From positions 2,127,065-2,191,064 of the forward strand of contig CAJINV010000003.1 in the NCBI GenBank assembly GCA_905178155.1: 64,000 nt of DNA, in the 5' to 3' direction. Below, piece after piece: positions 3,678 to 43,100 of this stretch. The stretch is from Amoebophrya sp. A120 (lineage: Eukaryota; Protista; Dinoflagellata). The notes beneath the pieces were generated by a model. That model saw only the letters and a list, made by a program, of their open reading frames with translations, was not told where the DNA came from and ran no database searches. Numbering within the stretch: position 1 is the first letter of the stretch; each line of letters opens with the position of its first letter. Position numbers and translations under genes: made by a program.

Positions 3678-3859
3678 AGATAGTTACAGTCTCGAATAAA
3701 AAAAAGCGAGCAAGAGCAACAGCATAGAGTATTTCCAACGATACGTAGTCGTACTCAGACTCATGTCTGAAAGGAGACAATGTTCGAAAAAAAAACCGAA
3801 CAACAGCGGAAGCCCCATGCCCATGTGCTGGCGGGCTACGAGTTCTTTATCTGAGGACA

Positions 3860-7300: not shown

Positions 7301-10300
7301 GCGGACAGTCCTCCAATGCCCGCAGCATCACGGAGCGGTGGACGACCGCGATGTCGCAAAGCGTGTCGCAAACCGCCCCCGTGGTGCGGCCCTCCGACAA
7401 ACCGAGCGCGCACAGTTCGTTCAACAGGTCCCCGTCGGAAACCGTCGAAACAGTTTCGCCGTTGACGGTGACGCGAACCCTCCCACGAAGGATCACAAAC
7501 AGCGCATTCTTCTCCTCCGAGAACCCGCCGTCGAGCCCCGCAGTGCCACCTGGAGTGCCATTATTTTCTCACATGAAAATCAAAATTTTTCGAGAGAATG
7601 AAACACGTAGCAGTACATCCACCCAATTGTGATTGCTTTTGAAGTATTTGCATGCAGTTAACTTTCATTTCAATGATTGCGCCCGCGTTTCGCAATTACG
7701 TCACCACGCAAGAGGTAGTTATTTCAAATGCAGGTAATACGTTCGGCATACAGCACCTCGTCGGAGAACCCGAACCGGCGCTCCTTGTACAGATCAAGAA
7801 TGTAGCAGAATCTTGTGAGTTCCCGCTCACGCATCTCCAGAACGGAGTCTGCCTCAATGTCGCCGCCGGCAGCAGACCTTTTCGAAGAATCGCTGTAGGA
7901 TCGAAACTCTTGCACAAGCTTGATTTTGCTGAGCAAGCTGCTCATGTCCGGGAGCGCCGACAGACTTTTTTCCACAAGCACGCGCTCGATCCGGTGAATC
8001 AGGGAAACTTCCGGACGGGCACGCTTTTTTGCCCCCGCAGCAGCGGACAAAATATCGTGCTCCCGCAGCAAGGCCGCGCGACTCAACATTTGGAACCAGC
8101 AGGTCGTACGTGCACTCAGTGTAACCGTGTCTGCACGACGCCCACCTTGCGAGGGCAACAGGAGCTCAATGCCTCCGTAAATATCGCCGTCGCACATCCG
8201 TCGTATGACCTGTGTGAAAACCGCCGACATGAAGAGAAGCCTTGCCCCACATGCTATGGCGCCGCCTGGGCCTCCACCAGGGCAGGCCCCCGGGGCGCCC
8301 GAAATCGTGCCGATAACACAGGGGCCCACTTCCGATTTTTGGCGGGGCGCGCTTTTTTTTCCTCTGTCTTTCGCCTCGGGAAAGCATGAGGCCTGGCCTT
8401 CAGTCCGCCTCTGCAGGGCCGCCCTTGGTGGCGTCTTTTGCGAGGCCCGAACGTGGGCCGAAATCGGGCCCGCGCGATGCGGGCTCGGTGTTTTTCCGGG
8501 CTGCTGCTCTGTTGGCGCCCCGTTGTGGGCGCCCAAAATCGGCAGAAACCAAGCAAGGCGGTGGGCGCCTCGAACGGGCGCCCCCTTGCCAGCCCCCGCG
8601 CGTCGTTTTATCAAGCGCCAGCCGATAGAATACGAACACCGCTGGGCTTGGTTGGTTGCTATCAACGCCCCGGCTGCTTGATAAGTCAGTGGGCGAATGC
8701 TTTTTATGTGCCGGAAAAAACGCTACCGACCGCTTGAAGCCTGCCGGGCATTTTGCAATATACCTCGCAAAAAAAAACCCGCAAGACCGGAACGTCCGTG
8801 GGCGCGCTACATACAAAAAACCCGCAAGGGGCTACCGGGCCACCGAAACTGCCCGCCGCGCAAGCGGCCAGCGGCCCTACCCTAGGGAATGCGGCCGGCA
8901 GGCGTAGACAAGCTGCGTGCGGGGCGGCCCCTGCGGCCGGCACCTCGCCAGCTGGTTTTCGGGCCCGGGGGAGTGCCACCGAAGGAAGAATCCCACTGAA
9001 AGGCCTTCCCCAAGCAAGGCCTTCCGGGAAGGCCCCGGAAATCCTTCCGAAATCCTTCCCAAATCCTTTCAGAAGGTCCCGGAAACCCTTCCGAAATCCT
9101 TTCCAAATCCTTCCGAAATCCTTCCGCCGGTGCTATGATCGACCGCCCCGGGCAAGTGGCAGACCACAAAAAAAATTTTTCTTGAAAAGTGAATTTGTAA
9201 GGCGCCAAATGTTTCCGGAATCCTTCCGAAATCCTTCCCAATTCCTTCCACTAAGCCTGTTTCGGACTCACCACTTTTTTGCTATTTTTTCATTGAAAAA
9301 GGCCGCCACTTTTTTGCAACTCGCTGGAAGCATTTCGGAAGGATTTCGGAAGGATTTCGAAGCCATTCCGAGGCACATCACCCCCGTGCGGTTTTCCTTA
9401 TTCAAAGGCGCCGCGCCGTTTGTTTCGCCCGGCAGCCGGCACGCAATCTGCCGCGCGCGGCGCCTTGCCGCCGGCGGGCCCACCTGGCCAGGGCCCCAAG
9501 GAGGCGGGTTCGCCGCCTCGCTTTCCTCTGGTTGCCCTGATGGCATGGCCAGAAGGGCGCCGCCCCCCTCACCAAGACATGCCGCGCCCAGAAAAGGCGG
9601 AAGTAAGGCCGCAGGCGTTTTGCTGGCTTGAGGCCAAAAAGCGACGCAACTTCTATGGCCACCGTGCCACCGTGCCTAATGTTATGCACGACGGCACGGG
9701 GGCCGGTGGCAATAACGGCCGCGAGCAGCAGGCCACTTGGTTGGGCTCGAAACGGAAGGCCTTCGCCGCATGCCATGGCTCGGCCCGCCTGGGCCTCCGC
9801 CGGAGCAAGCCATCCACGTGGGCGTCCGGGGTCGGCCCAGTGGCATAATTAGCATGCGGGCCCACTTAAGCTTTTTGGCGGGGCGCGATTCTTTTGTTTT
9901 TTGCCAATAAAAATGCGGCCCCTGCCCTTGAGTCTACCGGCCCGCGCGCCTATGAGGTCGGCGGCCGGTTGGTGGCGCCCTTTGCGAGGCCCGAACCAAC
10001 GTGGGGCAAAATCAAGCCACCACCATGCGGACTCGGTGTCGTTTTCGTGCTGCCGCTTTTCTGGCGCGCCTTTTTGGGCAGCCGGAATCGCTAGAAATCA
10101 AGGCGCGTGGCGCGTCAGAGGGGAGGGCCCCTCTTTTGCCGGCAGGCTCCCTTGCGTCATTTCATCGGCTGGCAATCGCTAGCAGGCTGCTGCGCCGGTT
10201 TGCATTTAAGGCCCCGATCGCTTGAGAGGCGGAAGCGTTTTGCATTTCCGGCCGCCGCTTGAAAACTGCCGGCCGGCATGCGTGATGCCTGGCAGAAGGG

Positions 10301-13300
10301 CCGCCAGGCTAGAGCGGTCCTGGCCTCACTGCATACCAATCAGGCGGACCGATAGCGCGCGGCGCCTGAAGAAAAGACAGCGCCCGGCAATGGCAGGCGC
10401 TTTGCGTGGTTCGCCGTGCCATGCGGCTCAAAAATTGAGCCCGGCGGAATGCTGTGCGTCAGATTATTCACCGCCGTAATATAGATGCGGCCCAGGCCAC
10501 CGCAAGCGCAATGGGGCGCCCTTCAGTTTGCAATCTACTGACGCCCTGAAAAGTTGGGGCGCTGGAAACATTCCGGAAGGTTCTTGGAAGATTTTCCCCC
10601 AGATTGCGTTAACAGAGATGGCCGTTTGTAACATCCGTCGTATGACCTGTGTGAAAACCGCCGACATGAAGAAATGAGTTCTTGTTCAACGATCGCGGAG
10701 ATACATGAAAAGTTTTTGTCTTTGTTGTGCATACAGTTTTATATATATCCTCATGCCTCCTCATGATGTGCTTCTCGGCAAAAACTGAAAATAGCTGCGT
10801 ACCTGCCCGCAAATTTGCACTTCGATCACGCCCGATAGTAAGATCAGTAAGGAAGGGGATCGGTCTTGGTCACGCGTTACGGGCACAATGTCCTCCGCTA
10901 GCGCAATTTCGTCCGTCATGGCGCGGTAGAGCAGCGTTTTGGTCTTCTGACTTGCGCCATGGAACATGGGCGTCAGAAAAAGAGGCGAATCGTCATCCAC
11001 TACTTTCTTCAGGGCGCGTTCGGCTGCGGTCGTGGGGCGAGGACGCCTGCAGCTTTTCGCTCTGGAGGCAGGCGCGTCTGCCGCGAACACGTAGTTTACG
11101 CACTTCTTCACGTTCACGCTGTCGGATAGTGCATACATGCCTTGGCTCGTGGTCCCCTCCTGCGCTCCGTCAACCAGGGCGTTGCTCGCCTCTTGTTCAG
11201 CGGTTGTCGGCTGTGCATGATCACCAGCTGCTGCGTCAACGACATCGCCCGTTCCTGTTTCCACAGGGTCGCTGCCGTCCTGCCCTTCTGAAGCCGCAGC
11301 AGGCTCGTCCCCGGCGCGCCTCTTCGAAGTTTCGATACAATCAGCCCCTTGTGCCATCTCGGCCGTGTACAGAGCAGTTGGCTGAACCCTCACTGCTCCA
11401 CGCCGGCGTGCATTCAGCAAGGTGTTCGTCGGGCGGCCAGGCGGGCTATTGATGTTCTGGCTCGCGGCTGCATTCTCGTCATCCAAATCGTCGGCGCTCC
11501 ACGCGTCCCGGTTGTCGTACATGACCTCGGCAGTGGCGCGCCACGTGCGTCCCTGCGTGCTCATAACGCGTTTGATCACAATTCGCGTTTGCTGCTTCAA
11601 GGAGTTGAGGGCGTTCCGGACGGTTGTTCTCTGCTGGGATATATCTTCATTCTGACCCTCCGCACTGGAATCCTGGTCGTCTTCATCACTGCTGTCCTCC
11701 TCGTCATCTTCGTCTGATGTGCCCTTCTTTTCTGCACCCGATTCGTCGTCGCCGGAACAGCCATCACTCTTGTCGTCTGACGCAGCTGCTCCGTCGTCCT
11801 CCGGCACTGAATTCAGCTTGCAAACCGCATCCGTCGCTCTCGAATGCTTGTTATCACCGCTCGCGGATCTTCTCGAGCTTTTGACACGGACTGTGGCTTT
11901 CTTGTCGCGCCAGGTGCTCTGCTTGCCGGTCGGGTCTTGCGTTTGTCGCTTGCCGAGCTGCGCCTTACGAGATTTCGTACCTCGCTTGTTCGCGGTGTTG
12001 CCACTTTTTCGGTTATTTCCAGTTTCACCATCAACATCGTCATCCTCGTTCTCCTCCTCGTCCTCCTCCTCATCCCCGTCGGGAAACAGCGAGTCCTCTT
12101 TGTTGGTAATATGTCGGCCAGTGTCCGACTCTGAAGCCCCAACCCGGCTTTGCATCGCTTGGCGCTTGCGTCGAGCCACCTCCACGTTTGCTCGCACCAC
12201 CCGCCGCCCGATTTGCTCCAAGTCCAGCCAGGCCCACGTGCGGAAGATCTGCAAAAAGTTGGCCCCCGTCGACACCTTTTGCAGCGCCTTCTTGGATAAC
12301 AAGTAGCAGGCACAGAAGTCCTCGGCGATCACCGTTTGCGTGTACTTCTTCCCGATGTCCAGCACGCTCTGCTCTTCAAACCAGCAATTTTCCGCCAGCT
12401 CCTTCACGAGCACGCCTCGACAGAACGCCAGCGCTTTCCCGAGCCGCAGGAAAAACATGCAGTCGGACGTGGTGTCCTCCTGACAGAGCATCTCGCCGGG
12501 CGTGTAGATTCGCTTTTGCAGCGAGTTCTCCACCTGTTTGAGCGAATGGATCGGCAGCCACTGCGCGAACTCCGGAATGATGTTGGTCAGGTGAAAGGGG
12601 GTGCTGCGAATCAAGTTGTCGAAATTGATTTGTCCCATGGACTGAAACAACTCGAACTCGTCGGGAAACCCCACCGTCAAAAGGTCCCACAGGTCCTCGC
12701 GCAGAATGACGAGACACTCGCACCCGGAGGCGTTCTGCAACGAAGACGCGTCGTGGCTCGAGGTGGACCCACTGCTGCTGCTGTCTGCTTGCTGCCCGTT
12801 GGCACTAGTACCGGTTGTGGTCCCAGCCCCGGTCGAGGCTGTCGCCGAAGATGAGCCCCCGCTTGCTGCATTGTTGTAACCCGCCGTCGGACCTCCAGCC
12901 TTCCCACCACTGGCGGACATACCGCCACTGGTCAGCGCAAGGTCCACGGCGCGCACAGTAGCTGTTCGCTTCCGAGAAATGCCTAACACGGCCAGCTCGC
13001 CGACAATTTCTCCCTCATTCAGCTTCTTCACGACCTCGTTCACGCCAGTCGTCCGGTTGCGCACCTCAATCTGCACTGCCCCCTGAAACACGATGCACAT
13101 AGAATTTCCGTTCGTGTCGCCCTCCTGGAAGATTAGTTCGCCGGGACCGAATCGCTTGCGCAGAGTGCGGCACGAGAGCCGGTACACGAATTCCAGACGG
13201 CAGCCCTCAAAAAACGACATTTTCCGGAACGTATTCACCATGCGGGACTGTTGTGTGTTCATTGGGCTTGAATCCGTCAGAATAGAACAAGAAGCTGCTT

Positions 13301-16850: not shown

Positions 16851-17456
16851 ATGCGGCGTAGACGTCAAAGTGGCATCACCCGCGACTTGCTCATCCACTT
16901 CGAACACCGCCTGCCACAAACAACGCGTTTGTTGCCAGCGCACTTCTTCCTTCTTGTTTCACTTGCCACCAGATATATCAATTTTTTTGATATTGCTCTT
17001 GTTCGGTATTCGTACATAGGGAGCGTGCAAACTTTCTTCAAGGTGACGGACTATTGCAACAAAGATCGTCACCTTTTTCCAAGGTGCGGTCACAAAATTT
17101 TCTTCATCACGCTGCTCAGCTCATCTCGGTAGTTTCAGTGTACGAGCGCAAGTGTGTTCGTCTTCGTATTTCAGATGAATCATCTGCCTCGGTTTTCATA
17201 TGGTGCATCGCATCTTACCGCCAAGTAGAAGCTGACAGTTCACTAGTATCATGTTGGCGAGAAACAACAGTGTCAAGCCTATGTCTGAAACACTGAAAAA
17301 AACCCTATACCTACTGAAGTACTTGCTCTGTTTACGTATCTCTCATTCACAATCATTCACTTGGACAATGAAACACTAACACATGACGTCTTGGTTTGGA
17401 CATTGATCTGCTTCTGGTAGTACAATTCTGGTCTTCTACGTGGTGGAAAAAAACCT

Positions 17457-24690: not shown

Positions 24691-25214
24691 GTTGGCCCTA
24701 GCGGGCTTTTTTGTAGTGACACTTGTCGTCACATTTTTGAAGGTAAAATGGTTCGAAAGAGAAGAGACGCAGGGTCACAGCAGAGGATCACAAGGATTAT
24801 TCACCTTCTTAACATGCTTTCCGTTGCAGTACTCAATCCTTTTCCAACGTGGACCTGTGGGTGCCGAGGTTTATCGAATAGAAAAAAAAAACAACTTTTT
24901 ATTTCGCAGAAATAACTCTGCAATGCATCACGCTTATGACATTCAAGCGGCAGCGGATGTGCTCACAAAATGCTGACATCAATATGAATGTATGAATGAG
25001 TAACTGACGCGAAAGCATGACACAGACTCACGACACGAGGGAAAAAACATGCGACACACGTCGAAATATACTCCACCGCGAACACTCCTTACGCCCCTCC
25101 TGAAGTCAAAGACACGCGGGCAACCCCAGCGCGACTTCCTTCGCGCTATAGATTTGCCCTCCTGTTGGGTGAGGGAGTAACCACTTACAAGCTTCGACCC
25201 CATACTTACACAAC

Positions 25215-27330
25215 CGCTCCCGGTCCAGGCAGAAGGGGGACCAGGCCCCGCGGCGACGCGGGCCCGCGCGGGGCGACGCGATGGCAGCAGCGGAATAGGG
25301 CCGAGTGCTTACTGCGCCCTTCCCGAATTGCCGCAGAGAACGAACGCACGAGGCGCCGGCTTGCGCGCGCCGAAGGCGCGCCCCGCTTGCGGGGCGAGCC
25401 GCGGGCGCCGCGAAAGTGCGAAAAACTACGCCCATACGGGCACGAAAACAGGGCGCATATAGGCGCCCTATTTGCGCCCAGTTTGAAAAATTGCGGCTGG
25501 CCGCGCGCCGTGCCGCAGCCGCAGCATCAAAGTAAAGCGATCGCGTGGAAAAGGCGCGCTCGTGTTTGGCACATGAAGGGAGAAGCCCGGCGAAAAATGC
25601 TGCCAAGACAGGCCGCACGCGAGGGCGCCACGCCCTCGAGGCACCAAAACGACCGCGGCCCTCCCAATCGCCTGCCCGCCCGGTGCGCCAAAACGACGGC
25701 GGCCCCCGGCCTCGCGCCGGAGCACGGAGAAGGCCCGAAACGGGCTGCCCGCATGCGCCCAGCACCAAAGCGATACTGAACGAAGGCGGCTGGCCTCGCG
25801 GCCGGCCGCCTATTCGTGTCGCCTGGAGCAACAGCCCCGGCGCACCATGCGCGGCAGCCGGGCCCAACACACTGCCCCCGCGCGCGCTTGCGTGCTTGCC
25901 TGCTGCTGGCAGGAGTGGGCCCCGCGCCGCCCTACCCGGCAGGGGCGGCCGGCGGGCTTCAGCGCGCCGCGCGCTGCTACGTCTCGCGGCCGTCACCCCC
26001 CGCCAGTAGGTCTCGGCCATCGGGTCCAATGCCTGTCGGCCCACAAACGACGCACATCGCCACGACTGCAATAGCCATCACGGGGTCGCTCTGGGTCAGG
26101 AGCGTCATGCATTTCGCGAATTTGGTCAATCGCGGGGACGGCCCCTCCCTGGGGGCGGCGTCCGGCCGCCAGCCAAGCGCGCGCCCCCCGCCCCTGGGGC
26201 GCCACGGCGCGGCCGCCGCCTGCTTTACAAGCGGCGGGCGGGCTCGCAATACTGGCGCGAACTTTCTTTTTCCCAGAGATTTCGCCAGCGGCCCGGCCGA
26301 GCTCTTTCTGTAGTTTTGCCAGGGCCCTGCTCGCTCGGAGACCCGTTACCCTGTACCAAAATCAGGACAGCCGGGGTTCGGAGTGCAGTAGGCTACCCCT
26401 TCCACCCGGCCCTTCTCATTTGGGGGCCGGGCCGGCAGGTCCGGGTCACCAGTCCCGCGCAGTTTGCTCATTACATAGAAAGCTAAGCAGGAGGCCCGCC
26501 CGGCGATCCGAGAACGAACAGGCGCGCCTCGTGGCCAACGTTCCACCCAAAACCGCCACAGCTATCCGCGCCGCCCAGAGCGCCCCCCCCAATGGGCACG
26601 CGTGCCGTCATCGAAATGCGCGCCCTGCGCAGCCCAGGCGCGCCGCAGTGCCGGCTCCTTTCCATTTCTCGCACAACGAAGGGCCACCCAGCCATGGGGT
26701 TCCGGCAATGGGACTCGCCGGCCCCGGGGCCCGGACTTCTTCGAGGGGCAGGACCTCATAGCGCGAAGCGCGCCCCGGAAACAACGAACGCCGCCCCGCT
26801 GAGGCCGCTCTCCTGCGGCCGGCGGAGACGCCTGCTCTCGGTAGTTCTGCTCCTGCTGGACCTGCACGGGCGCGGCCCCTGTCGCTGCGTACTGGGGGGC
26901 TAGGGTCTCGGCCCCCGCGGGCCGACGGCGATCGCATGCGAGAGGCGGAATGGCCCGCGCAACAGCGCTCGGAGCGGGGGCCGGTGGATTGCCCCGGCGC
27001 GCGGCGGCAGCCTCGGGACGCGCGCTCGCGCCCCGCGCGGCGCTGCGAGTTTTCTCCGCCCCCCCCCGGCCCGCGCGACCGGCGCCACACGGATCGCCGC
27101 GGCCGCTCGCGCTGCCGATGCCAGGCTCTTCGAAAACCGGCCGCGCTCCTTCCGTCAACAGTCCTGGTAAGCCCCTGCCGCATGCACTTGGTAAATGTTA
27201 CGGAAGCCAGTGGGCTCATCTGGGGCCAAATGCGACCCGGGCGGGAGTGCTTGCCGGGGCCACTTGCGGCCCGGGCGGATCTGCGTGCTCGCGCCCCATC
27301 GGCCGGCGACGGCTCCCCCAGAATGGAACT
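25215..27330. other. GC-rich degenerate island (probable decayed mobile element or pseudogene)
   Basis: Same compositional signature and similar length as the other two islands. Protein-like remnant PVQVQQEQNYREQ on the minus strand near 26830-26870. Boundaries approximate. Confidence 0.55.
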
Positions 27331-27798
27331 TAGGTGCAAGGGAAAGCCTTAGAGCCTCAAACAGGTCGGGGAATGAAGCCACTATAGCTAAACGCGACCC
27401 GCGGGTCTTCGTTTTCACGAACAGACACTCCTATCTCTTCAAGTAGTTTGCCATCGCTGTGCACCTGCACGTATGCGCCACAGAACGTGTGCCAGGATGC
27501 GCCATTTCTTTTTGTACTTAGTTCCTTCTGCGAGGGCGAGCACTTGCACTACTAGTAGTAGCATGTATTACAGTTGTTTCATTCAAACTTGATACAACAG
27601 TGTCCTTGCACTTGCAGATGCAGGTACTTCAGAACCATAAGTTCCTCACATACTACAGGCGCAAATGTGTTGCGTTATTCCTATGGATCCTGCTCAGAAG
27701 GTCCCTGTCGTCTCAACGATGAAAAAGTCGCTTTTCTAGATTTCGAGAGTGGCACACATCCAGCCAGACTACGCGATCCACATCGTCCACCTCCCTCG

Positions 27799-30322: not shown

Positions 30323-31270
30323 CTACCTGTCGCTCGCGGAGGTGCCAAGCGACTTGCGGGCCTCATGAGGTTGCTGCAACGTCTTATCTTGGTTTTCTTG
30401 GATGCGTCGCAGATTTTCTGAGATGATTTGGTCAATGCCCTGGTTCTGTGCGTTTTTCGTTCGCGTCGCATCCGCCTGCTCGTCGCGTAAACGGCGCTCC
30501 TGTTGAACGATCAGCTCCCGTTTTCGTTGCTCGTACTCCCGCAGAATCTCCGCTTTTCGATGCTCCCAGCGCTTTGCTAGCTCACGCTGCACTGTTTGTT
30601 GAATCTCGTTTTGGACCTCGGTTGACTTGAGTTTTTCGACCACCTGCTTTTCCAGTTCCTCGGTGACCAGCAGCTCAGACTCGCTCCCAGAAGGGGAGGA
30701 ATCATGTTCCGCTACTCCTTCCTCACTGCTCCCAAGAACATTCTTGGTCGCCAAAGAACTCGCAGGAACGACGTTGGTGCTAGAACCCGACTTGAGCCGA
30801 TCTCTGTTCTGTCCAGGACGCGGGGGCCTCTTGGCATGGTCCTTGTCTCCTTCTTTGTCCCGACGGTCATCTACGACCTTGTCTTTCTCATCCTCGTCGT
30901 CCGGGGATTTATTTCGCTTCTCCTTCTCCCCAGCTTTATTTCCCCTCTTTTCCTCTTTCCGTCTAGCGTCAGTGGCGGCAGAGAGATCGTCGTCTTCCTC
31001 TTTCACCCAGCGCGCGTGACGGGCCGCTCGGTCCAGCGTCGCTCGATCTCGGTCGCCCAGCTGGGGCGATTTTCGCTTTTCCCTTCTACGGTCCTGCCCC
31101 CTGTCCTTTGACACGACCCGATTACGGCGAGGAGGACCCCGATCGGGTGTTCGTCGCCTTCCCGACCGATTGCGATTTCGCCGCTCTCTGCTGATGCTGC
31201 GCTCTCGGTTCTGTCGCTTTCTGTCGTTTCGCCTGCCGCGCGAAGAAGACCTGCGCCGGCGCTTGCTCAT
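30323..31270 (-). CDS. Arg/Ser-rich protein with a Glu/Arg-rich coiled-coil C-terminus, ARGLU1-like (splicing-associated)
   Basis: RS-rich N-terminus. C-terminal VVEKLKSTEVQNEIQQTVQRELAKR...IDQIISENLRRIQENQ resembles the ARGLU domain. The 3' end may be spliced further (CAG|GTAG at ~30325). Confidence 0.6.
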   Translation of the reverse strand: MSKRRRRSSSRGRRNDRKRQNRERSISRERRNRNRSGRRRTPDRGPPRRNRVVSKDRGQDRRREKRKSPQLGDRDRATLDRAARHARWVKEEDDDLSAATDARRKEEKRGNKAGEKEKRNKSPDDEDEKDKVVDDRRDKEGDKDHAKRPPRPGQNRDRLKSGSSTNVVPASSLATKNVLGSSEEGVAEHDSSPSGSESELLVTEELEKQVVEKLKSTEVQNEIQQTVQRELAKRWEHRKAEILREYEQRKRELIVQQERRLRDEQADATRTKNAQNQGIDQIISENLRRIQENQDKTLQQPHEARKSLGTSASDR

Positions 31271-31853
31271 GTTGGTTTCTACTTTTGTGCACTCACCGCA
31301 AAGAACACAAAATCAAAATCTCAAATCGAAATCGATATGTATGTGGTATGATCAGTGTTGGGTAAGTCAGTGTAAGGTAACAAGACAAACACTTTCACTT
31401 TTTTGTTTTCACGCTACTATTCTTGGAGCACTGCGGAGACATTCCAACCTATACGATTGCCGATGCAGAAGGGGGTCAGCATACAAACAAGAAAAAGGAA
31501 CTTTCGGTTGTCGAGCATCCTTTCGTGCCGGCATTTGTGGCTGCGTCGTCCAGTTGTAAAAATATCATGACTAGGACTCGTCAGGCTGAGAACCTAGAAA
31601 AGTGACCAAACGCCAACCAAGGAGACGAGCAAGTCCTAGTCTACCTGCGTGTACGTGGTCGAGCGGGTTGCAGCTTTTCCTTTTTGATTTTGTCAACGAC
31701 ATCGCAATGAAACACTGAAACCTGTTGAATCGCTCCGGACTGGAAAGGCGAACACCTATCTCCGACCTGCAATTCTTTTGTTTCTTTCGCTCTCGCACGC
31801 AGAGAACTATTATCGGTTTGAATCTACTGGATCCTGAACTTGTTTCCGCTACT

Positions 31854-33019
31854 GATGGTCTGAATCTACTGGATCCTGAAAAGACACTAGCGACAATGCC
31901 CGGGTGGAGAACGAACATTGCAGCGATAAGACGATGAAACAAGCACGACGGGCTTCTCTTTTCCTTACCCGCCGCCGAAGAAAGGTTTGTTTTTTTTGTT
32001 TTTTCGCATCCCCAAGAAACTCAATCGTGAAAAAGAAGCTTCTCGTTCGCCCTGTGAGGAGCATATCCCCAGGAAAGGACTATTTTTCTCACGTTTTGCA
32101 CAGTATCCAGCAACATCCGCGATGGCTGCATGTCGATTGCTTCTTCGTGTACCTCGGTCTACTTTTTGCTGGTGCTACTTAGTCTTAAATGAAAGTAGCG
32201 CCGAAGCTAGTCCTGGTTTGTGTACAATGGGGCTACTGTTTCTTATAATTTCTCATCTAATTTTTTCTGTACAGTGTACGTTTCATCCTATTTTTTTTGC
32301 AGCACACGACACTGATTCATTTTAATTTTTCTTCGAAACTATTCAATCTTACATTTTTGCCTGTCGCGTCTGATTTCGATTCGGTCGTAATTGTGACTGG
32401 TGTCTCAAGAACTTCAAGTGGTTGTAAAAAGTCTGCTAAAATTGTGAAACGGATCGATAAGGTGCAAATTGAATTTGGTTTTGGTACAATAGAAATTTGT
32501 TAGCGAAACTGCAATGCAATTTTTGATAAAATTCGTTGTTCAAGCATCAAAGGTAAAGCTGTTGTAAGTCTGTTCGAAAGTTGTCAACGGAGTTGCAAAT
32601 GAAGCTACTGTTGTGTGAAACAGTCTTTGATTCTGTAAAGCGAAACGGTTGTATTCCCATACATAGTAAATGTCTCGATAAATTCAGAATCGTACAGTGT
32701 TGAACTAGTTTTAATTTTTCGGTTAATCCGTGTGGCACGTTACAAATAATGATTTTTTCTGTCGTTTCTATTATCGAATCCGCCTGTCTTTTTCGTATTA
32801 TTCTTCCGACGTAAGTTTCCTCTAAAATCTGCTGAAAATTCCGCGCGGCTATCATTGTTGTTCGCGCGAGTTATTTGAGTTTTAACTGGCAACTGCTGTG
32901 TCCGCTCGTGTTTGATTTTGTTTCTCGTTTTACAGTGAAATTCCTAGCGATAGTTAATTTGGATATGCTGAGAACTAGAAATTGAAGCGTAGCACCTTTT
33001 CATCCTCTTCGGTTATCGG
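31854..33019. mobile_element. ~1.15-kb insertion or duplication segment (element X) between target copies 1 and 2, with an AT-rich decayed reading frame
   Basis: Bounded by target copies. AT-rich 32300-33000. Minus-strand ORF 32547-32855 continues in frame past TGA and TAG stops (…QQLYL*CLNNEFYQKLH…). No family recognised. Confidence 0.5.
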
Positions 33020-33087
33020 GAACTATTATCGGTTTGAATCTACTGGAGTTCAAGTTCAAGTTCAAGTAGTATTTTTTTTCAACGGGG

Positions 33088-34021
33088 GAGGCGGCAGGCT
33101 GCTATCTTCCTATGGCTCTGGATTGGCGGCAACAGGGCTAGAAGCTACTAGATGATACCTAACCTCACCACTAAGCAATAGTAGGGGTAGTGCCTGTCCG
33201 AGCGGGAGCACCCACTCACATATAAACCTATTCTGTCAGGTTCTTACTTTTTAATTTTTTCCTAAGACTTTCCCCTTAGGTCCTTAGGGGACTCGACGAA
33301 CTTTTGCTCGGTAGCGGTAAATGCTTATTCCGCTGACTTGGATCGATTCTTCCATTTGTAAAACTAAAAAGAGCACAGGAAGCACCCAGATGGCCCCTTT
33401 TATTTTTAGCAGCTCGATGACTATATGTATGACCGACGCGAAAAAGTAAACTACCCCTCCTCGACAAAAACTCTCCGAGCGCATGCATGCTTCTTTTCTA
33501 TTGCTACTGATCCGCACAGTAGTCTTTGACAAAAATTTCATAATGATCTTATCTTGCCTTTTCCGAGGGGGCGCTACGCGGAAAACTAATCTAGTGCTCG
33601 GACCTAAAAGGGAGCCACAGGTCTGCATGCAACATAGCAGGTATGGGAAATCGGCATACAAGATGAAATGCCACGCACTGGCAAAAAATAGTGTCTACTT
33701 TGGTCGTGCTTCCTGCTCCCCCTGCGAATCCCCCGGCCGGCACCGCAACCACCGGCGCAACGGCAGAGCGTGGGATGTGGATATTTTAAGCCCAGTCTTG
33801 CTGTGGCCTATTCTATAGCCATCCCGTTATCAACATACCTCCTAGCGGTGTTTAAGGATTAATTTTGGTTAGCACCTGGCGCAACAGGTGAAGCTATAAA
33901 AAACTATTTATAGAAAGAGTTTAAACGACCAGAAAATCACCGCGAGGTTCTAAGTTATAAGGCTAAACAAAAGCTACTTATTTCCAGATCGCCCTATGTT
34001 TCCTTTCTTGCTTGCCGCCTC
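33088..34021 (+). ncRNA. Candidate large structured RNA, module A (~930 nt)
   Basis: Ends pair (gaggcggcagg 33088-98 / cttgccgcctc 34011-21). Many internal helices are conserved or covarying with module B (see findings). Confidence 0.65.
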
Positions 34022-34849
34022 TCGGATTTTTTGTCTCTAAAGCTAAAACTTGTCACGCCACGAACCCTTGCTGCTCACAGCTTCATCAACCTCATCTCCG
34101 TTTTTTATTCGCGATCTGTCCGCTGGTGGTAGTAGTTCTCGATGATGCACCCGCCGCGCAACGCTACGCAGCTGGACATAGTAAAGGGTAGCGGCCCTCG
34201 TCCCACAATTTGTAGACCGCAAAACCCATCTCCTTCGCGCAGGGCAAGCAGATTGGCGCGCCGCATCTAGATCAGCTTCCGGCGTTGCTTCGGCCGGGGG
34301 GACGCAGCCGCGTGGTACTTTGGCCGCTGCTGGGCGAATTTTGTCCGTAGTGTCGCTGTAGATGATCACGCATTCTACGCCCGTCCATCCAAACGCCCTT
34401 CTTGCAGCGTAGAGCCGCCGTGCCTCCTGCGAAAAGTCGCCTCTTCCCGTCAGCCTGAGAAAAAACATATTTTCAAAACAGCCCCGGAGAGCTGCCGTCT
34501 GAATCGAGGATCAATCTCATCTATCAACACAAAAACTATCTCTACCTCCTGTTTATTTTCAATTCTATCAACATTAACTATAAGCAAAACAAAATAATCG
34601 CTTCTGCGCATGACAAAATCGTAAGAATTAGTATCCTTTTCCCGTTTCGCCGCGGCAGGCTTCTTTCCTCTCCCAGTCACTCGGTGTGCCGTCACACGTG
34701 TGCCCTCGTTCCGTTAATTCGCGATCTGCTCGCTGGTAGTAGTAGCCCGCGTTGATGCGCCAGCCACGCGGCGATGTGCTGCATACAGGACTTGCGGGAT
34801 GGAAGCTCTCCCCGTCCTGAAAATATGGGGGGTCGCAGCTTCACGGTGG

Positions 34850-35820
34850 GTGGGTGGCAGGTCACTATCTTTCTATGGCTCTGGATCGGCGGCACCAGGG
34901 CTAGAAGCTACTAGATGGAGCCTAACCTCCCCACTAAGCGATAGCAGGGGTAATGCCTGTCCGAACGGGAGCACCCGTTCAATACAAACCTAAGTTATCA
35001 GTTTTCTACGGTTATGGGCTCATAAGACTTTTCCTCTAGGCTCATAGGGAGCTCAGCGTGCTGTTGCTCGGTTGCGGTGAATGCTTAGCCCGCTGGATAA
35101 AATATGATTTTCGACAACAGTTGCTAGCCGTTATAAAAGCACTCTACTAGAATGAAACACGATTTCCGGATCTCAAACGACTTCGACTTTTATCTGTCAC
35201 TTCATTCGAATCGAAAACAAAAACAAAAACAACTACCCCTCCGAGGACCGAGATTTTATTTTCACCGAGCGCATACAAGCACTTGCACATTTTAGGCCGA
35301 TCCGCACGGCGTCCTTCTCGTCGTTCTCCCAACTCATACAAAAGTCGAATATTAATCGAGGGGGCGCTACGCGGAGTGCTATTCTAGTGCTCGGACCTAA
35401 AAGGGAGCCACGGGCTGACATGCTTCTTTGCAGGTTTAGGGACTTTCGATCATATATCATCACCAAGCACTGGTGTAAGACTATAGTAATTTTCGATCGT
35501 GCTTTCCTGCTCCCCCCGCGAATCCCCCGGCCGGCACCGCAACCACCGGCACAACGGCAGAGCGTGGGATGTTGGTATTCTAAGCCCAGCGGTGCTGTGG
35601 CATAAGTTAAGGTCATCCCGTGCTAGTTGTACTCCTTACGGTGTGTTAATAACTATGATAGTTATCGCCTGGCGCAACAGGCGGAACTGGTAAATTCTAA
35701 CTGTCGAAAGTTTAAGCTTGGTCTGAACACCGCGGAGGTTTAGCTTATTCTTATCATAATTATGAATATCTTCTATATATGCCGCTACTACATTAATTGC
35801 TACTCTTGCCTGCCACCCAC
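34850..35820 (+). ncRNA. Candidate large structured RNA, module B (~970 nt), diverged copy of module A
   Basis: Ends pair (gtgggtggcagg 34850-61 / cctgccacccac 35809-20). Conserved blocks occur in the same order as in A, with unalignable AT-rich linkers. Confidence 0.65.
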
Positions 35821-37166
35821 AGTATACGACATGTGCCTTCCTCAAAACCTCAAACTGCCGCACGGGGGTGCAGCCCGCGCGGCATCCTCGGGTGGCGCGC
35901 CTGGTACGGAAACCCCGCCGCCGTGTGTGTCGTGTCCGCCCTGGTCGACTTCTGTGACCGTGCGTGCAGAGGATGGAATGTTGCTGCTGTGCTCCCGTGA
36001 CGGTAAGGGCCGGGCGCCACGCGCCCGCCTCCGGCTTCGTAGCAGACGGGACCCGCATGTTGCAGGTAAATGGCACCGATGTCATCGCAAGATTCTCCGC
36101 ACCCCCCAGGGCTATATTGCGTCGGTGCCCATGCTCCGCGTCTACCGTGGCGGACATGTGATGCTTGCCCGCAGAGACCATCGGTTTGTGGTCTGCTCCC
36201 CTAAAGGGGTAGATTTCGCCGGTACTCGGTCACAGGGAACTCCAAACCCGGTGGGTCGACGCGGGGACTATTATCGGTTTGAATCTACTGGATCCTGAAC
36301 TTGTTTCCACTACTTTTTATCTCGATCTATTCCATCTTAAGTACTTACATACTTTTATGAAAGTTTCATTGAAAACTCGGCATTCCAAAATAAATTTTTT
36401 GTATCAACAGTCGAAATCGAAATCCATGCAGTTTTATTTTCTCAGAACGTCAAAAAAAGGATCGACGACGTTTTTGCTCTCCTACTTCCCGTTCAGATTG
36501 CGCCGCTTTTTTCGGTATTTTCACCGTTGTTCCAAGACCAATCCAATGATCTGATTCGAACCGAGTCGGTCGTGCTACTGGTGCCGAGATGTGATGAACA
36601 AATGTTGGCTCACCTGCGCTTTCAAGTCCCGGACTCTCAGCCTTGAGGGGCGGACGAGAAATAACTATGCGCACGTAAACTCTAGATACTAACATGGTTC
36701 AACAGCTTCTTTTTCTTTGCGCGTGGGAGGACTTGATTTTAGGTTGTAGAAAAAGTACGTACAGAAAATCGCAATCACCTTCTTCGATACTGAAAGATGA
36801 GGTGACTGATGCAGATGCCTCTTACATGCTTCGCGCCTCGACGAAAACATGCAAGGAGGGGGGTGAGACCAAAAGAGTTGATCGATAAGTTCTTCTATTG
36901 AACCACTCAAAAGCCTAATTCTACTGGGTCGCGACGGTGACATGTAGTACGGAAATGGAAAACCGTATTCGCTACAACAGCGCCGTAATTTTTTTGCAAG
37001 GATTGCATGTACATTTGGCGATGTACTACACTAAGCTTGGCCGCGTCAAGCTTGATCATTTTTACTCGTAAAGCTACTGGCTATACGTTTTTCAATATTC
37101 ATTTATCTTCATGATTCTTTCGAGCGTTTCGTAAACAAGTGACTTCATTTTGGTACAGGTTCTCGC

Positions 37167-40100
37167 CTAGCAAGCCGCAAACACCGCAAATAGTAATGCA
37201 GCTGCGAACGCGTACGTAGCAACAAAGACCGCGTAAAAGGAAAAGTCTCTGCTGTTGTCTTGCTGCCGGCCAAATTCGTTGTGTCGTTCAAGACTTTCCA
37301 CGACCCAATCTCCGACGTGCGTCAGCGGAGCGGATGGTGGCAGCGGAATGTTTTCCCCGCGGACCTCCTTTTCCAGCTCAGTCCAGCGAGCGAGGTGCAC
37401 GATCCTGGACCTGCTCGTGGGAGCCTCGGGCGTCGTCCCTTGGTAGTTGCCGCGTGACCGAGAAAAGAGTGTCATCGAGCTTCTGCGTGCGAGGTTTGTT
37501 TGTGGTTGCCGTGTGAAAATGCCTTCCGCGAGACCCACGTCGTCCGTCGAGAATAGCAGACAGCGCCCCTGCGAAGTAGAATAAAGAGAGAATCGACAAC
37601 CGAAATCTTCCTTCCGACGACCAGCATGCCAGGTCTGCTGACACACGGACGCGCAAACTGTCGGCGACGGTTCCGCGACCGCGTCTTGCTGCTCCCCGGC
37701 CGGGGTTCCCTGCGTAGTTGCAGATGAAACCTTTAGAGAAATCATGCACAACGACGTGCGCCCCTCTTCCCCCGCCTGCGCGTGGCCTCGTACTTGCGTC
37801 GCGTAGTGGTAAACTTCGAGGCCCTCCGCCTTCACAGAGTTGCCCCGAAAGGAGAAGGCTCGATCGTCTTGCGTCAAAAAGTTTTTGCATTGAAGCCGGT
37901 GCCGCTGGAGCACTTGACTGGGATCCGTCTGTCGAGCTGGGCGCGGTTGTTGTCGATCGGGGGAGGTGCTGGGAAAAGTTGAAAACACAAGCGCAAGCTG
38001 CAGTTTTCCGCTGGGTGTACTATCTGGCCGCGGCGCTGGCGGCGACAATTGCACTACACTTGAGGTAGACAATGCCCATACCGGTTGCCTGATGTCATCC
38101 TGCAAGTTGATAACGCTTTGCCCAGGCCCGTGATATTGCGTTTCGTAGCCCCACATCGCCTGCCACGTGCGATTGTCGCAGTTGATGTGCCAAACGCAAT
38201 TAATCACGTTAGGTCGGACAAAAATGACGGGAACGAGTGCCGGCAGCATGAGGGCAAGCAGAACCGCTATCAGTACCCAATTGCGGCGCCGGTTATACCG
38301 CAAAAAAATAGAATCCGTTCCTGCTGCAGTCGACGTGGCCTTCTTGCTTACGCAGAGACTAGGTAGCATGCCCGCACGGAGCCTGCTCTTTTGGGAAAGC
38401 GCTGCAGCCAGCAGAAGCCCGAAAAACGCCTGATTCAAAAATATTAACGCGTTGTCGTAGTTTTGGGTTCGCGGTCCGATTTCCGCTCCCGTCTCGATGT
38501 CGTCGCGGCCGAAGTATACCCGAAAGTAGCCGACGGAATCGCACAGGTTCGCATACAGGTAGGGCACAGCCAAGGTACACATGCCTGCGCTGACCGCTAA
38601 GCCTAGTCGCCACAAAAAATGCCGATGCAGAAACCCGCATTGTGGCGGCGGCACCACAACCGGTTTTCGTGGCAATTGGCAGTCTGCGCTGCAGCTCCGC
38701 GACAGAGCCTTGTGGACTTCTTTGTTTTCATTTTTCGACACTTGTTCAGCTTTAACAGAAATTGTACTATCAGGCGACCCTTTATTCACAGCTGTCTCGT
38801 TCTCCGCTCCCCGTCGCGGCGTTGTCAGATGGCTCTCGGCGGGCTCCGCGAGTGTCATAGCCCAGGGCACGAGCGTCGTAAGGAAGGCGTCTGCGTAGAA
38901 CCAGGCCGCCATGGGAGCGAAGGCGTTGGAGAGGAGCATCAGCACCTTCATGGTGAGCACCCAGACGATGCCGAAACTGATAAACCACAAGAAAATGCGC
39001 ATGCTGGTCTCCAACGCGCAACGGCCCTCGAGGAGCAGCGCGACAATTGCCGCAATGCCGTCCTCGTGCGCTTCGCCGTCCTCCTCGCACGGCGGGCGAC
39101 TCCTCACCATGAAAGGCGCAACGACCGACTGATTGCTGCTTTGCTCCTCATCGTCGTCCTTGTGATCGGTTTTCTTTGCGTAACCGTGGATGAGTGCCAC
39201 GCCGATGTCCGCTTGCTTGAGCGCGACCGTGTCGTTACCCCCGTCGCCGACCATGCCGACCAAACCGTCCCTTTCCGTCTGCTGGATGTGCAAGATCAAC
39301 CGCTTCTTGCCGTCCGGTTTCACGCGCCCGAACACCTTGACCCGCTTCATAAACCAGGTGGGAAACGCTCCCTGCGGCGCCAGCTGCAACAAGTGGTCGT
39401 ACGCCCGCTCGGTCAGTGCCAGATCAGGGCAGTTTTCCCCGCAGTTGGCGCCCTGCGCCCGGATCCACGAGATAAAGTCGGCGTGCCTTTTCGGAAAAGT
39501 TTCCGCGAGGGCAAAAGAGGAATCTTCTTCGTTCTGCTCGCGCGCCACGTGTTCCCAGTGCACGTCAGGGAGACCTAAATTTAGTACCTTTTCATCACAA
39601 ACGAGATCCCCGACGAAAATCCTCTTGGTGTCGTCTAGTAGTTGGCACTCGCGCGCCGCAGTGACGCCCGTGTGCACGGCGTCTCCCGTGATCATGACGC
39701 AGTTCACCCCGAACCGCTTCTGCAGCCGGTCGATGACGTACTTGCTTTCCCGCTTGATGCGATTCTGGAAGAGCATCAGCCCGAGAAACTCCAAATCGCA
39801 CTCCACCTCGTCGCGGTCCATTTTTCTGTGGGATTCTGCGATCGCGGAAGGATTCTGCTCCTGCTGGATCTTCGAGCAAGAAATCGCTGCAGAAGTGGGT
39901 TCTTCATCCAGTCGCCGCGTTGCCACCGCTATTACGTAGAAGCCCCGGTTGCTGTAGACCTTTGTCTGCGCGAACACGTCAGCTGGAATTGTTTCGGGTC
40001 GGCATGCGGCTGCAACGCGTTCCACGGACCCTTTGCAGAAAATCCTTCGGATTCCGCCAGCTTCTTCCACCAACACCGCTTGTCTCTGTCTTCGTTGATC

Positions 40101-43100
40101 AAATTGCCACTTTTGCAAAACGGTGACCTGCAACCGCTCGTGCACGACCTCGGAAGTTGTTATGCTAGTACTCGCTGTATGCAGCAAATTATGCGGGCAT
40201 GCATATCTGCGCACCGCCTCCGCAGCGTCAGCGGCCTCCTGCTGCTCCCTCTCAATCTCATCGGACCACGGACTTCTGCTGCCCGGAGACCGCTCCTCGA
40301 TAGTTCTAGCACCTTCGCCGGACTGCTCTGGCTCTGCGACTACTACTTCCCAGCTATGGAAGCGTCAGGTTTGAAATCGTCACAGTTGAAATAATTTGTA
40401 ATGCATAAAATGCGACACAAAAAGTGACTCTATTGCAGAGGACCCACGGGAGGCAGATTATAGTCCTTGTAAGGGTCAAAAGTTGGACTGCTAACTAGCA
40501 TGACAGAAGGCAGCTCTTTGGCCCTAAACCGCATGACAGACTCGCTTCCAGGACCGGGAAAATTTGTCATGCGCCGACTACAAACTGTAGGTCTAACTGG
40601 TATCCGTTTTATGCATGACAAACTATTTCAACTTTGACGATTTCAAACCTGACACATCCATACCAGCCGATGGCTTCGAACATGCTCTTCTCGACCGGGT
40701 TGCCGATGACCGTTCCGTCCGCTATATCCTGAGTAAAAACATCCCCACACCAGAGTCAACATGGGGACTTTGCAACACAAACCTAGGAGTTTTAGGAGTC
40801 ACGCACGACAAGTTTCAGTCCGTAAGGTAGTGCAAGTTAGCAAGGAAGGCCGCATCACAAATCGACCTTCTGATCCTGTTTACAGCATTACAAGTTCCCA
40901 AACACGACTGAAAATGCCTGTCATGGGGTTGCGCATCACAAATGTTCCTGTCGTGGCAAATCTGCATGACAACTCTGGGGTGGGGACGTTTTTACACAGG
41001 ATACGCCAACTGCGTCACCGAGTGGCAAGACGCCAGTGCAAGCAGCAGCTGCGGCGCCTCTGCGTGCAGCAATGCGTTGAACTCCGCCTTGTTCGCACCG
41101 TACAAGTGCTCGGCCGAGCCGTCCCCCTGCGAATCCACAACGCCCGCGAACTCCATGCCATCGTGCGTGAGCGTACCGGTCTTGTCAAAGCAAAACGTGG
41201 TGACGCGCCCCGCACGAGGAATGCGACTTGTGTCTACGCAAATCATGTTCACCTTCTGCTTTAGTCGCCGTGCGGCCGAAGTGCATGTATTCGAAAGAGA
41301 CACAGGCAAGAACGGGCTCACCAAATTGTTCATCGTTGTCAAAACCTGGGTGATCAGCAAAATTATCGCGCTGGGTGAGTTGCCGGCTTTCACGGCGAAG
41401 CATATCAGCACGAATGGACACCCGATTCCAAGCAGATACCGGAAAAAAATCCCCATTTCATCATCAAACTGGAAGCAATGGGGTTCCACCGTCTGCGCTT
41501 CCAAACCCACCACGTCCGCGTCGTGTACCTGGCAGATGGCAGAATTCTGGGAGGGGGCTCCTGTTTGTCTATTGCTCTTGATCGCATCTGATCGGGCAGA
41601 AAAAACGCCACTTCCTCCTCCTCCAGAAGCTCCAGTTGGGTCGTAATTTTGACCGCTGTACTCGTCTGGAACGCGAACGCCGCCTGAAGAGTGCAACAAA
41701 AGAGCGCGCTGTTCTTCACTCTGCTCGTGCAGTTGAAGATCCTTGTAGCTGGCGCTCGCGCTTAGCGAAAAGTTCTGGTGCGCCGCTGCGTCGCGCTCCA
41801 AATCTGTGTGAGAGGACATTTTTCGCAAGGACGACTCGGGGCAACATCCAGGGGACTGCGCGGTCCCGATGCTTACCCGGCTATCGCCGAACTTCTGCAA
41901 CCGCAAATTCGACGGAGGACTCGTGCTCATCATCTGGGGCGAGGATCGGTCCAGGGGCAATTTCAAACCGCTCCCGCTACCGTACTTCTGCACCGAGTCA
42001 GGTGCGGGGCTGTACAAGTTTTCCAGATTTGTACCCGCCGACGTGCTGCCCTGTAGTCCGTTTTCATCGCCTTCGTCAAGAAGAAGATCCTTGCGCAACA
42101 GCGGAGAAGACGGGTCTCCTTCCTCCATCTTCAGCTCAAAATTGATGGAGTCGTGCTCTTCCTTGAAATCCGTCGGACTACACACGGAAGATGATGCACC
42201 GTGACCGAAATCTTCTGACGCAAAACTCCCATAACTTCGGTGCTGGTGCTGCAGTATTCGAGCGTGTATTTGTTCTGCGGTCGCTTTCTGCTGGAAGTAC
42301 CGCGACGGCCCCTGCCGCATCTCGGAGGGAGACGTGACATTTGACTGCCCCACGATCCGCGGGTCATTCATGGTAATACCTGGGGAGGAAGCGAGCGGCG
42401 AGTAACCGCTTACCAGGCTGCACTTACTGCTTCTTTTACCCGTCGTGCGTCTGCGCGTCGCAGCGAGCTGCAGAGCCGAGTCTACTCGCGCGAGGAATGA
42501 AGACCTTTTGCGCTCCCGAAGGCACGACGACCCTCCCATATTGGTGCAGCTCTCCTTGCTGGTGCGGGGACTTTCTCGCATGTCCGCGAAGGAGGCCGTC
42601 ATCCCGTGGTCAACAAACCTAGGACTGCTCGCGCCGTGCGGGGAACACGCGTAGTACTCACTTTCCGCAATTTGCTCCTCGAGGTCCCCCATATGATGGT
42701 CCTCGTCCAGCAACGCTTGTGCGTCAGACCCTTCCAACAGCATTTGTCGTATGAGGCTGCCGCGCGTCGTGCCAACCCCGATCGCGTAAACCACGGCGAC
42801 ACCACCTCCGGAAAAAACTTGCGTGCCCGCGAACAGAATGTGCTGCTTCATGGAGGACAAGTCCGTCACGCGCTGCGGAGGTGCGGAAGTATTGTTGAAA
42901 GTAGTCGACATCATGTTCCTCGTGTTCGCTACCTGCATCATGTCGTCTCTCCTCCTGTCATCAGCCATCAACCCTACTTCTATCAACTCGCTCTTCTGTA
43001 CGCTGAACTTTTGCACGGGTGTCGCCTCCCCGGTCAGCGCGGCCTCGTTCATGATCAGGTTGTCACCCTGCACAAGAATGCAGTCGCAGGTCAAAGTCAT

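What the first reader, a model, noticed from the sequence alone, without database searches (positions are those of the whole stretch)
31806..36314. The same target apparently hit twice, with a fixed right junction and variable long duplications
Seen: target copy 1 (48 bp), segment X, copy 2 (26 bp), element Y, copy 3 (48 bp). Both inserts join the target at the same position (…cggga|actattatc and …cgggg|actattatc), while the left junctions differ and carry extra sequence: a 20-nt re-copy of the target (31861-31880) and (GTTCAA)3. Established: target-primed reverse transcription gives a precise 3' junction and a variable 5' junction, and site-specific CRE/SLACS-type elements make long TSDs. Inference: a sequence-specific integration mechanism acting on plus-strand RNAs, matching the strand implied by the G-U pairs. 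Alternative: (CTTGAA)n is an RTE-like 3' tail of a minus-strand element.
Basis: partly seen in the sequence, partly recalled or inferred. Interest (0 to 1): 0.7.

Follow-up and report, generated by a model that had tools for sequence, protein, structure and literature searches.

The report
One template-switching insertion, structured RNA cargo
In a marine dinoflagellate-type genome, two unrelated non-coding pieces sit between three copies of a short DNA site and were likely stitched in by one copy-and-jump event rather than by an enzyme that seeks out that site; one piece carries a duplicated 870-base sequence predicted to fold as an RNA that matches no family in the RNA library searched.

Summary
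The three target copies (48, 26, 48 bp) are real, and independent contigs support the assembly. The reading 'two hits by a sequence-specific CRE/SLACS-type element' is weakly supported. Three of four junctions, including the right junction of X, carry filler copied from the target. The (GTTCAA)3 run is an inverted, slipped copy of target bases 30-37, not an element tail. No further copy of the target appeared in two DNA-like runs. X has one paralogue (about 92-94% alike) whose flanks are unrelated to the target. A second insert in the window has a perfect 42-bp duplication at an unrelated site, so long duplications here need no sequence specificity. No poly(A) tail or reverse transcriptase gene was found. 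Best reading (0.45): one target-primed event at a break staggered by about 48 nt, with template jumps Y, target, X, target. Two sequential hits at a preferred site remain possible (0.25). The stranger part is Y: two 870-nt non-coding units, 69% alike, with compensatory base changes, further diverged copies elsewhere in the genome, no Rfam match and no near-identical donor seen. Their RNA strand is unresolved.

The parts
31806..31853 (+). Target copy T1 (48 bp)
31854..31880 (+). Left filler of X: 7 nt plus a direct re-copy of target bases 14-33 (31861-31880)
31881..33010 (.). Insert X: AT-rich, no coding role found, one collinear paralogue elsewhere (match from 31879) whose flanks are unrelated to the target
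33009..33021 (+). Right filler of X: target bases 8-13, then 5-11, then the two bases found upstream of T1; its first 2 nt overlap the end of the paralogue match
33022..33047 (+). Target copy T2 (26 bp; 28 bp with the two upstream bases)
33048..33070 (-). Left filler of Y: inverted slipped copies of target bases 30-37, then inverted bases 43-49 (matching the T3 allele)
33085..33958 (.). Unit U1 of Y: non-coding, block-conserved, with compensatory changes; strand unresolved
34104..34172 (.). Short repeat B1 (75% alike to B2)
34714..34782 (.). Short repeat B2, 65 nt upstream of U2
34848..35748 (.). Unit U2 of Y, 69% alike to U1 over 925 columns
35749..36266 (.). Right part of Y, ending without filler, poly(A) or simple repeat; no second copy laid at 85% likeness
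36267..36314 (+). Target copy T3 (48 bp)
8194..10672 (.). Comparison locus Z: exact 42-bp direct repeat (8194-8235, 10631-10672) around a 2395-bp insert; target unrelated to T

Best explanation
Three copies of a 26-48-bp intergenic site flank two unrelated non-coding inserts, three of the four junctions carry filler copied from that site, and the whole arrangement likely arose in one target-primed insertion in which a retrotransposon-type polymerase would have jumped from Y to the target, to X and back to the target. SHOWN: the anatomy, the target origin of the fillers, the unrelated flanks of the X paralogue, and a second long duplication at an unrelated site. INFERRED: (1) a bottom-strand nick at the left edge of the target and a top-strand nick about 48-49 nt to the right leave long 3' overhangs; (2) the bottom strand primes copying of Y from its right end, which gives the one clean junction; (3) at the left end of Y the new strand snaps back onto single-stranded target bases 30-49 and slips three times on a CA dinucleotide, giving the (GTTCAA)3 filler; (4) it anneals inside the top overhang at base 26, copies back to and 2 nt past the first nick (T2), stutters on bases 5-13 and, unligated, jumps to a second template, X; (5) at the left end of X it copies target bases 33-14 and joins the overhang at base 48 (T1). 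One nick then explains why both inserts meet the target at the same place. The enzyme would be supplied in trans by a non-LTR element without strict sequence specificity; none was found in the window. Y is read as a non-autonomous cargo RNA whose two U units fold into a conserved structure.
For: Fillers tile onto the target at three junctions (null fractions 0.00024, 0.0003, 0.00004) and not at the right end of Y. The Y filler uses target bases beyond T2, so bases 30-49 were available as template when Y was joined. Only the T1 and T3 flanks were seen for the 48-mer in 2 of 2 DNA-like runs. The X paralogue has unrelated flanks. Locus Z shows an exact 42-bp duplication at an unrelated site. Precedent: R2 protein makes snap-back, extra-template and tandem 5' junctions and jumps between templates (PMC11371274, passages). 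Sequence-specific non-LTR elements target multicopy sequences (PMC4640811, passages).
Against: There is no poly(A) or simple-repeat tail at either right end. No reverse transcriptase or endonuclease was found in 56 frames scanned against Pfam, 55 distinct, out of 121 stop-to-stop frames of 150 aa or more plus shorter ones. No near-identical donor of Y was seen, and the X paralogue is more diverged than the target copies suggest (1 change seen, 4.5-5.5 expected, P 0.03-0.06). Locus Z has no target-derived filler, so it may be a different process. The same anatomy can be drawn from two events. An RNA intermediate is not shown: no intron loss was seen between X and its paralogue, and the strand is unresolved. 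No whole genome was held, so short or diverged target-like sites elsewhere are not excluded.
Confidence: 0.45

Rival explanations
1. Two sequential insertions by a non-LTR machinery with real but relaxed sequence preference: X first (48-50-bp duplication), then Y into the downstream copy with its left duplication trimmed to 26 bp.
For: Both inserts meet the target within 2 nt of the same base. Both imply a stagger near 48-49 nt. Repeat insertion at one site is known for R1 (PMC2718515, passages), and weakened specificity for Utopia (PMC4640811, passages). The right end of Y has no paralogue to test, so its family's targets are unknown.
Against: The target showed no other copy in X1 and X2 and is no known RNA gene. 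The X paralogue is not flanked by it. X looks like ordinary two-copy DNA with filler at both ends. Locus Z shows that long duplications arise at unrelated sites.
Confidence: 0.25
2. Capture of two DNA fragments at a double-strand break by polymerase theta-type synthesis-dependent end joining, with no RNA step.
For: Overlapping direct and inverted copies of nearby sequence are the signature of multi-round SD-MMEJ (PMC2943611, passages). Microhomologies of 2-4 nt lie at the switch points (read by eye). There are no tails. X is collinear with a genomic paralogue.
Against: Clean 42-48-bp duplications at two loci in 64 kb suggest a dedicated staggered cut. No close DNA donor for Y was seen. Y carries units under apparent pairing constraint.
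Confidence: 0.17
3. Y is a minus-strand RTE-like element with a (CTTGAA)n 3' tail.
For: The repeat lies at one end of Y, next to an A8 run on the minus strand. Strand tests do not exclude minus.
Against: The repeat contains an 8-nt inverted match to the target (chance 0.006) and is followed by a 7-nt inverted match. None of the 3 loose-end rows shown upstream of other U copies (5 contigs; 11 of 26 rows were shown) carries the repeat.
Confidence: 0.05
4. Misassembly, simple local duplication, or conservative integration of a DNA circle at an att-like core.
For: The 42-nt identity of T1 and T3 exceeds the word length of the public contigs, so phasing across T1 is not proved by them alone.
Against: Contigs bridge T1-X, X-T2-Y, Y-T3-flank and T3-flank, at depths 39-48 against 43.5 for the flank. 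X has no local homologue. Templated fillers do not fit conservative recombination.
Confidence: 0.05

Closest known systems
CRE clade non-LTR retrotransposons (SLACS, CZAR, CRE1/2)
   Same: Target duplications of variable size (PMC12278014, passages); inserts meeting the target at nearly one position.
   Different: Those insert in spliced-leader RNA genes, encode RT and a restriction-like endonuclease and end in poly(A). Here the target showed no other copy, no such ORF was found and there is no tail.
R2-protein insertions with snap-back, extra-template and tandem junctions
   Same: Clean primed end; the other end carries inverted or direct copies of nearby target and a second template (PMC11371274, passages).
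   Different: R2 cuts a fixed rDNA site. Here the site is intergenic, the duplication is 48 bp, and a 26-28-bp target copy separates the two templates.
R1 tandem arrays in 28S rDNA
   Same: Target-insert-target-insert-target layout (PMC2718515, passages).
   Different: R1 copies are the same element, added into the 14-bp duplication at the 5' end. Here the inserts are unrelated and the upstream copy is longer than the middle one, so that order is impossible.
SD-MMEJ / polymerase theta complex insertions
   Same: Multiple overlapping direct and inverted copies of sequence beside the break (PMC2943611, passages).
   Different: Kilobase inserts and a long target duplication are not part of the passages read.
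VIPER/TATE (DIRS order) split direct repeats
   Same: Two kinds of internal direct repeat in one element.
   Different: Their order is A1, B1, A2, B2 with no target duplication. Y has U1, B1, B2, U2 at 69-75% likeness and a duplication.

Membership tests
CRE/SLACS site-specific non-LTR elements | Insertion in the spliced-leader RNA gene or another multicopy target | tested here: not met
   Only the T1 and T3 flanks were seen in X1 and X2; no Rfam match; the recalled dinoflagellate leader end motif is absent from 31000-37000; 0 hits in metagenome contigs. Short diverged sites are not excluded.
CRE/SLACS site-specific non-LTR elements | ORF with reverse transcriptase and restriction-like endonuclease | tested here: not met
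   No Pfam hit in the 7 frames of Y scanned or in other window frames scanned; no frame of X reaches 150 aa and none was scanned. A partner elsewhere in the genome could not be sought.
CRE/SLACS site-specific non-LTR elements | 3' poly(A) tail | tested here: not met
   No A run of 7 or more on the plus strand in 31800-36330; three A8 runs on the minus strand, one about 25 nt inside the left end of Y.
CRE/SLACS site-specific non-LTR elements | Target-site duplication | tested here: met
   48 bp and 26-28 bp.
CRE/SLACS site-specific non-LTR elements | Other family copies sit in the same target | tested here: inconclusive
   Not met for the single X paralogue. For Y only U-unit relatives were seen, with 30-nt views of their flanks.
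RTE-like element with microsatellite tail | Tail belongs to the element and is shared by its copies (feature recalled) | tested here: not met
   The repeat maps to the inverted target and is absent from the 3 loose-end rows shown for other U copies.
Curated structured RNA families (Rfam 15) | Match to a covariance model | tested here: not met
   0 hits at gathering score in the window; 3 weak hits at E 1.5-3.7, all outside X and Y.
Retrozymes and ribozyme-headed retroposons (hammerhead, HDV-like); group II introns | Hammerhead core, HDV fold or domain-V hairpin | tested here: not met
   Pattern scan with recalled motifs: 0 hammerhead cores, 0 domain-V hairpins, 3 loose HDV-like hits not conserved between U1 and U2 and judged chance. 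Self-cleavage itself is not testable here.
Target-primed reverse transcription products in general | RNA intermediate and RT dependence | not testable with these tools
   Inferred from junction anatomy only. Contigs of two runs guessed to be RNA (one study) cover most of X and Y.
VIPER/TATE/DIRS split-repeat elements | A1-B1-A2-B2 repeats and no target duplication | tested here: not met
   Order U1, B1, B2, U2 and a duplication is present.

The most novel reading that the evidence does not exclude
Y is the genomic trace of an undescribed class of non-coding mobile RNA built from an 870-nt folded module (possibly a new ribozyme, or a replicon evolving outside the genome, which would explain diverged copies with no near-identical donor). 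It would be written into DNA by a retrotransposon machinery that cuts with a 42-49-nt stagger and may favour a short target motif.
Probability: 0.15. Interest if true: 0.8.

Novelty: new variant of a known kind. Interest (0 to 1): 0.45.

Why it matters
The junctions record almost step by step how a polymerase can chain two templates and pieces of the target into one insertion. They warn that 'same site hit twice with a long duplication' is not proof of site specificity. Perfect 42-48-bp duplications at two unrelated loci in 64 kb point to an insertion machinery in this lineage that my literature searches did not find described. At locus Z the duplication appears to include a splice acceptor, a possible route to harmless insertion. 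The U units are candidates for a large structured RNA family with no match in Rfam.

Tried and rejected
No whole genome is held. Exact-pattern scans found nothing: viral contigs 0 of 2 scans, metagenome contigs 0 of 2, prokaryote genomes 0 of 1. blastn of Y against phage records gave no match. Earlier findings: nothing by place or sequence; one unrelated archaeal MITE note by words. Protein coding in U under a ciliate-type code was suspected from a few synonymous-looking changes and rejected: substitutions show no third-position bias in any frame. An HNH-like look in a minus-strand frame of the right part of Y gave no Pfam hit at E up to 5. The plus-strand 184-aa frame found 0 of 341 candidates at E 0.1. 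The protein atlas did not answer, so that check is open. No tRNA gene in the window. Folding energy does not separate U from shuffles on either strand (z 0.34, -0.94, -0.42, -1.55), and only 6 of 85 sliding windows passed z -2. A hand tally of one-sided changes leaned plus (6 to 2), but a strand-symmetric count gave 3 to 7, so strand is left open. No RNA holder is on record. Raw RNA runs X9 and X10 laid 0 reads, which is no test. Parts not covered by the RNA-guess contigs are not used as evidence. The original SLACS paper is not held, so no SLACS duplication length is cited. U1 snRNA substitute, telomerase RNA, RNase P/MRP, SRP and group I intron were considered from recalled motifs and dropped, because the motifs are not conserved in both units (by eye). 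Supplements of the papers were not opened; a repeat library in those of PMC7789003 or PMC12130899 could already list these elements.
Full report
Setting. The window encodes a DVNP-family protein (Pfam E 8.7e-17) among long, mostly co-oriented frames. I infer a dinoflagellate-lineage host, probably Amoebophrya-like; no call names it. The finding lies between a minus-strand frame at 30323-31312 and a P-type ATPase-like frame at 37167-40364. No whole genome is held, so genome context comes from contigs of public runs.

Observation. T1 (31806-31853) and T3 (36267-36314) match at 47 of 48 bases, T2 (33022-33047) at 26 of 26, and 31861-31880 repeats target bases 14-33. The 25-mer occurs 3 times against 0 in 100 shuffles. 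In run X1, contigs bridge T1-X (31818-32050), X-T2-Y (32578-33131) and T3-flank (36279-37400) at depths 39-48, against 43.5 for the flank. Runs X4 and X6 bridge Y-T3-flank. The arrangement is real. One gap: the 42 identical bases of T1 and T3 exceed the contig word length, so the left flank-T1-X phase rests on equal depth and on the window's own assembly.

Junctions. Against a modelled empty site, the left filler of X is a direct copy of target bases 14-33 (null fraction 0.00024). The left filler of Y is inverted bases 30-37, whose first and last two letters are both CA, allowing a 6-nt slip loop, followed by inverted bases 43-49, which match the T3 allele (null 0.00004; an 8-nt match of a random tripled hexamer has chance 0.006). 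The right end of X, defined by where its paralogue stops matching (about 33010, after a 3-nt indel read by eye), is followed by bases 8-13, bases 5-11 and the two bases found upstream of T1 (null 0.0003). The right end of Y has no target-derived filler. So three of four junctions were made by repeated short copying from the target. The 'precise right junction' holds for Y only, and the (GTTCAA)3 run is not an element tail. Neither right end has poly(A).

Is the target special? In 2 of 2 DNA-like runs (one sample) the only flanks seen for the 48-mer were those of T1 and T3. It matches no Rfam family and no metagenome contig. X has one other copy, collinear from 31879 to about 33010, with 66 substitutions and 16 indels listed over about 1050 aligned bases. 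Its upstream 1336 nt and downstream 135 nt did not lay on the target. Other U copies show unrelated letters just upstream (3 rows, 5 contigs; 11 of 26 rows shown), but that 30-nt view would not reach a target copy. A second insertion in the window, Z, has an exact 42-bp duplication (8194-8235, 10631-10672) around 2395 bp, with no likeness to the target or to the ends of X and Y and no filler. Long duplications therefore occur here at unrelated sites. Sequence-specific non-LTR elements target multicopy sequences (PMC4640811, passages), and CRE elements insert in spliced-leader genes, encode RT and RLE and end in poly(A) (PMC12278014, passages). These features were not met.

Mechanism. The Y filler was copied from target bases 30-49, which lie outside T2, so that stretch was probably single-stranded; this fits a stagger near 48-49 nt. 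A single chain accounts for every piece: primer at the left edge of T3, copy Y, snap back on bases 30-49, anneal in the top overhang at base 26, copy to 2 nt past the nick, stutter, jump to X, copy bases 33-14, join at base 48. R2 protein shows template jumps and snap-back, extra-template and tandem junctions (PMC11371274, passages). Multi-round SD-MMEJ gives similar fillers without RNA (PMC2943611, passages). R1 tandem arrays form by insertion into the 5' duplication (PMC2718515, passages); that order cannot give a 48-bp upstream copy from a 26-bp one, but X first and Y second remains possible. I give one target-primed event 0.45, two events at a preferred site 0.25, DNA capture 0.17, and the RTE-tail and artefact readings 0.05 each. 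Against my reading: no tail, no enzyme found, no proof of an RNA step, and Z lacks filler.

The cargo. Y holds U1 (33085-33958) and U2 (34848-35748), 69% alike, with identical blocks up to 33 nt. Substitutions show no codon bias under codes 1 or 6. Helices paired in both copies with double-sided changes number 9 against 2.67 +/- 1.59 in column shuffles, and those with two or more changes 5 against 0.6; 0 of 300 shuffles reach either (span 130). The same test on the Z duplication was also raised, though less (8 against 3.17, 7 of 300; 2 against 0.43, 24 of 300), so the test is somewhat lenient. Independent support: letters printed for a third copy (table 5c, two rows of depth 42.7, taken as one contig) replace both arms of the helix predicted at columns 43-49/96-104 and keep six Watson-Crick pairs, three changed on both sides (read by eye). 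Folding energy alone is unremarkable and the strand is unresolved. The 5' block has further diverged copies: 11 contigs differ at 34895, with summed depth 643 against 43.5. I read this as roughly ten or more copies; summed depth is not a copy count. The interior of Y lies on long contigs at single-copy depth, so no near-identical donor was seen. Contigs from runs guessed to be RNA (X4, X6; one sample, one study) cover most of 32012-36328 and bridge T2 and T3, a weak hint of transcription. The target copies look younger than the X-paralogue split (1 change seen, 4.5-5.5 expected, P 0.03-0.06). This is marginal, and the missing donor is unexplained.

Literature. I ran 9 searches and saw listings with abstract starts. 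I read passages of PMC7789003 (plus its section 5), PMC4640811, PMC2943611, PMC11371274, PMC2718515, PMC12278014, PMC3636483 and PMC12130899; no supplements. PMC7789003 reports LTR and non-LTR retrotransposons and mostly unclassified repeats in Amoebophrya, and PMC12130899 reports non-LTR-derived introners there. None of the listings or passages described 42-48-bp duplications or an 870-nt structured repeat in this lineage; the library is incomplete.

Verdict. The feature is real. It is best read as a complex template-switching insertion, a new variant of a known kind, and not as a CRE/SLACS member. The U units and the long duplications are the parts worth following. Interest 0.45.

Noticed in passing
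window 8194-10672: Exact 42-bp duplication around a 2395-bp insert with an internal 62% duplication (8236-8817, 9755-10339) and 11-mer arrays on both strands (9038-9359, 10560-10596). The duplicated bases appear to include a splice acceptor of a minus-strand gene (frame resumes at 8209), so the insert may be spliced out.
   Followed up: partly
window 34056-34094 and 34604-34654: Another locus, seen in runs X1 and X4, matches both short patches; an X4 contig holds them in the same order, so the spacer of Y has a distant relative.
   Followed up: no
window 33113-33223, 34848-35030, 35386-35587: Joints in X1 contigs suggest other loci with tandem or shuffled U 5' modules; a core of about 40 nt (33125-33164) recurs in several of them.
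   Followed up: partly
loose end before window 33085 in run X1: One other U copy has, about 25 nt upstream of the match, a 7-mer like the recalled 3' end of the dinoflagellate spliced leader; possibly a leader relic or chance.
   Followed up: no
window 40355-40410 and 40607-40662: 56-bp inverted repeat, 91% alike, about 200 bp apart, at the edge of the P-type ATPase frame; MITE- or introner-like.
   Followed up: no
window 1250-2096 and 2877-3704: Tandem paralogous genes, 80% alike, no Pfam family.
   Followed up: no
window 15000-16900 and 25000-27400: GC-rich stretches (0.62-0.70) with many overlapping spurious frames, no Pfam hit and no long flanking direct repeat; possibly old elements.
   Followed up: partly
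window 62802-63338 and 55910-56896: A DVNP-family gene and a histone-fold protein with a long N-terminal extension.
   Followed up: no
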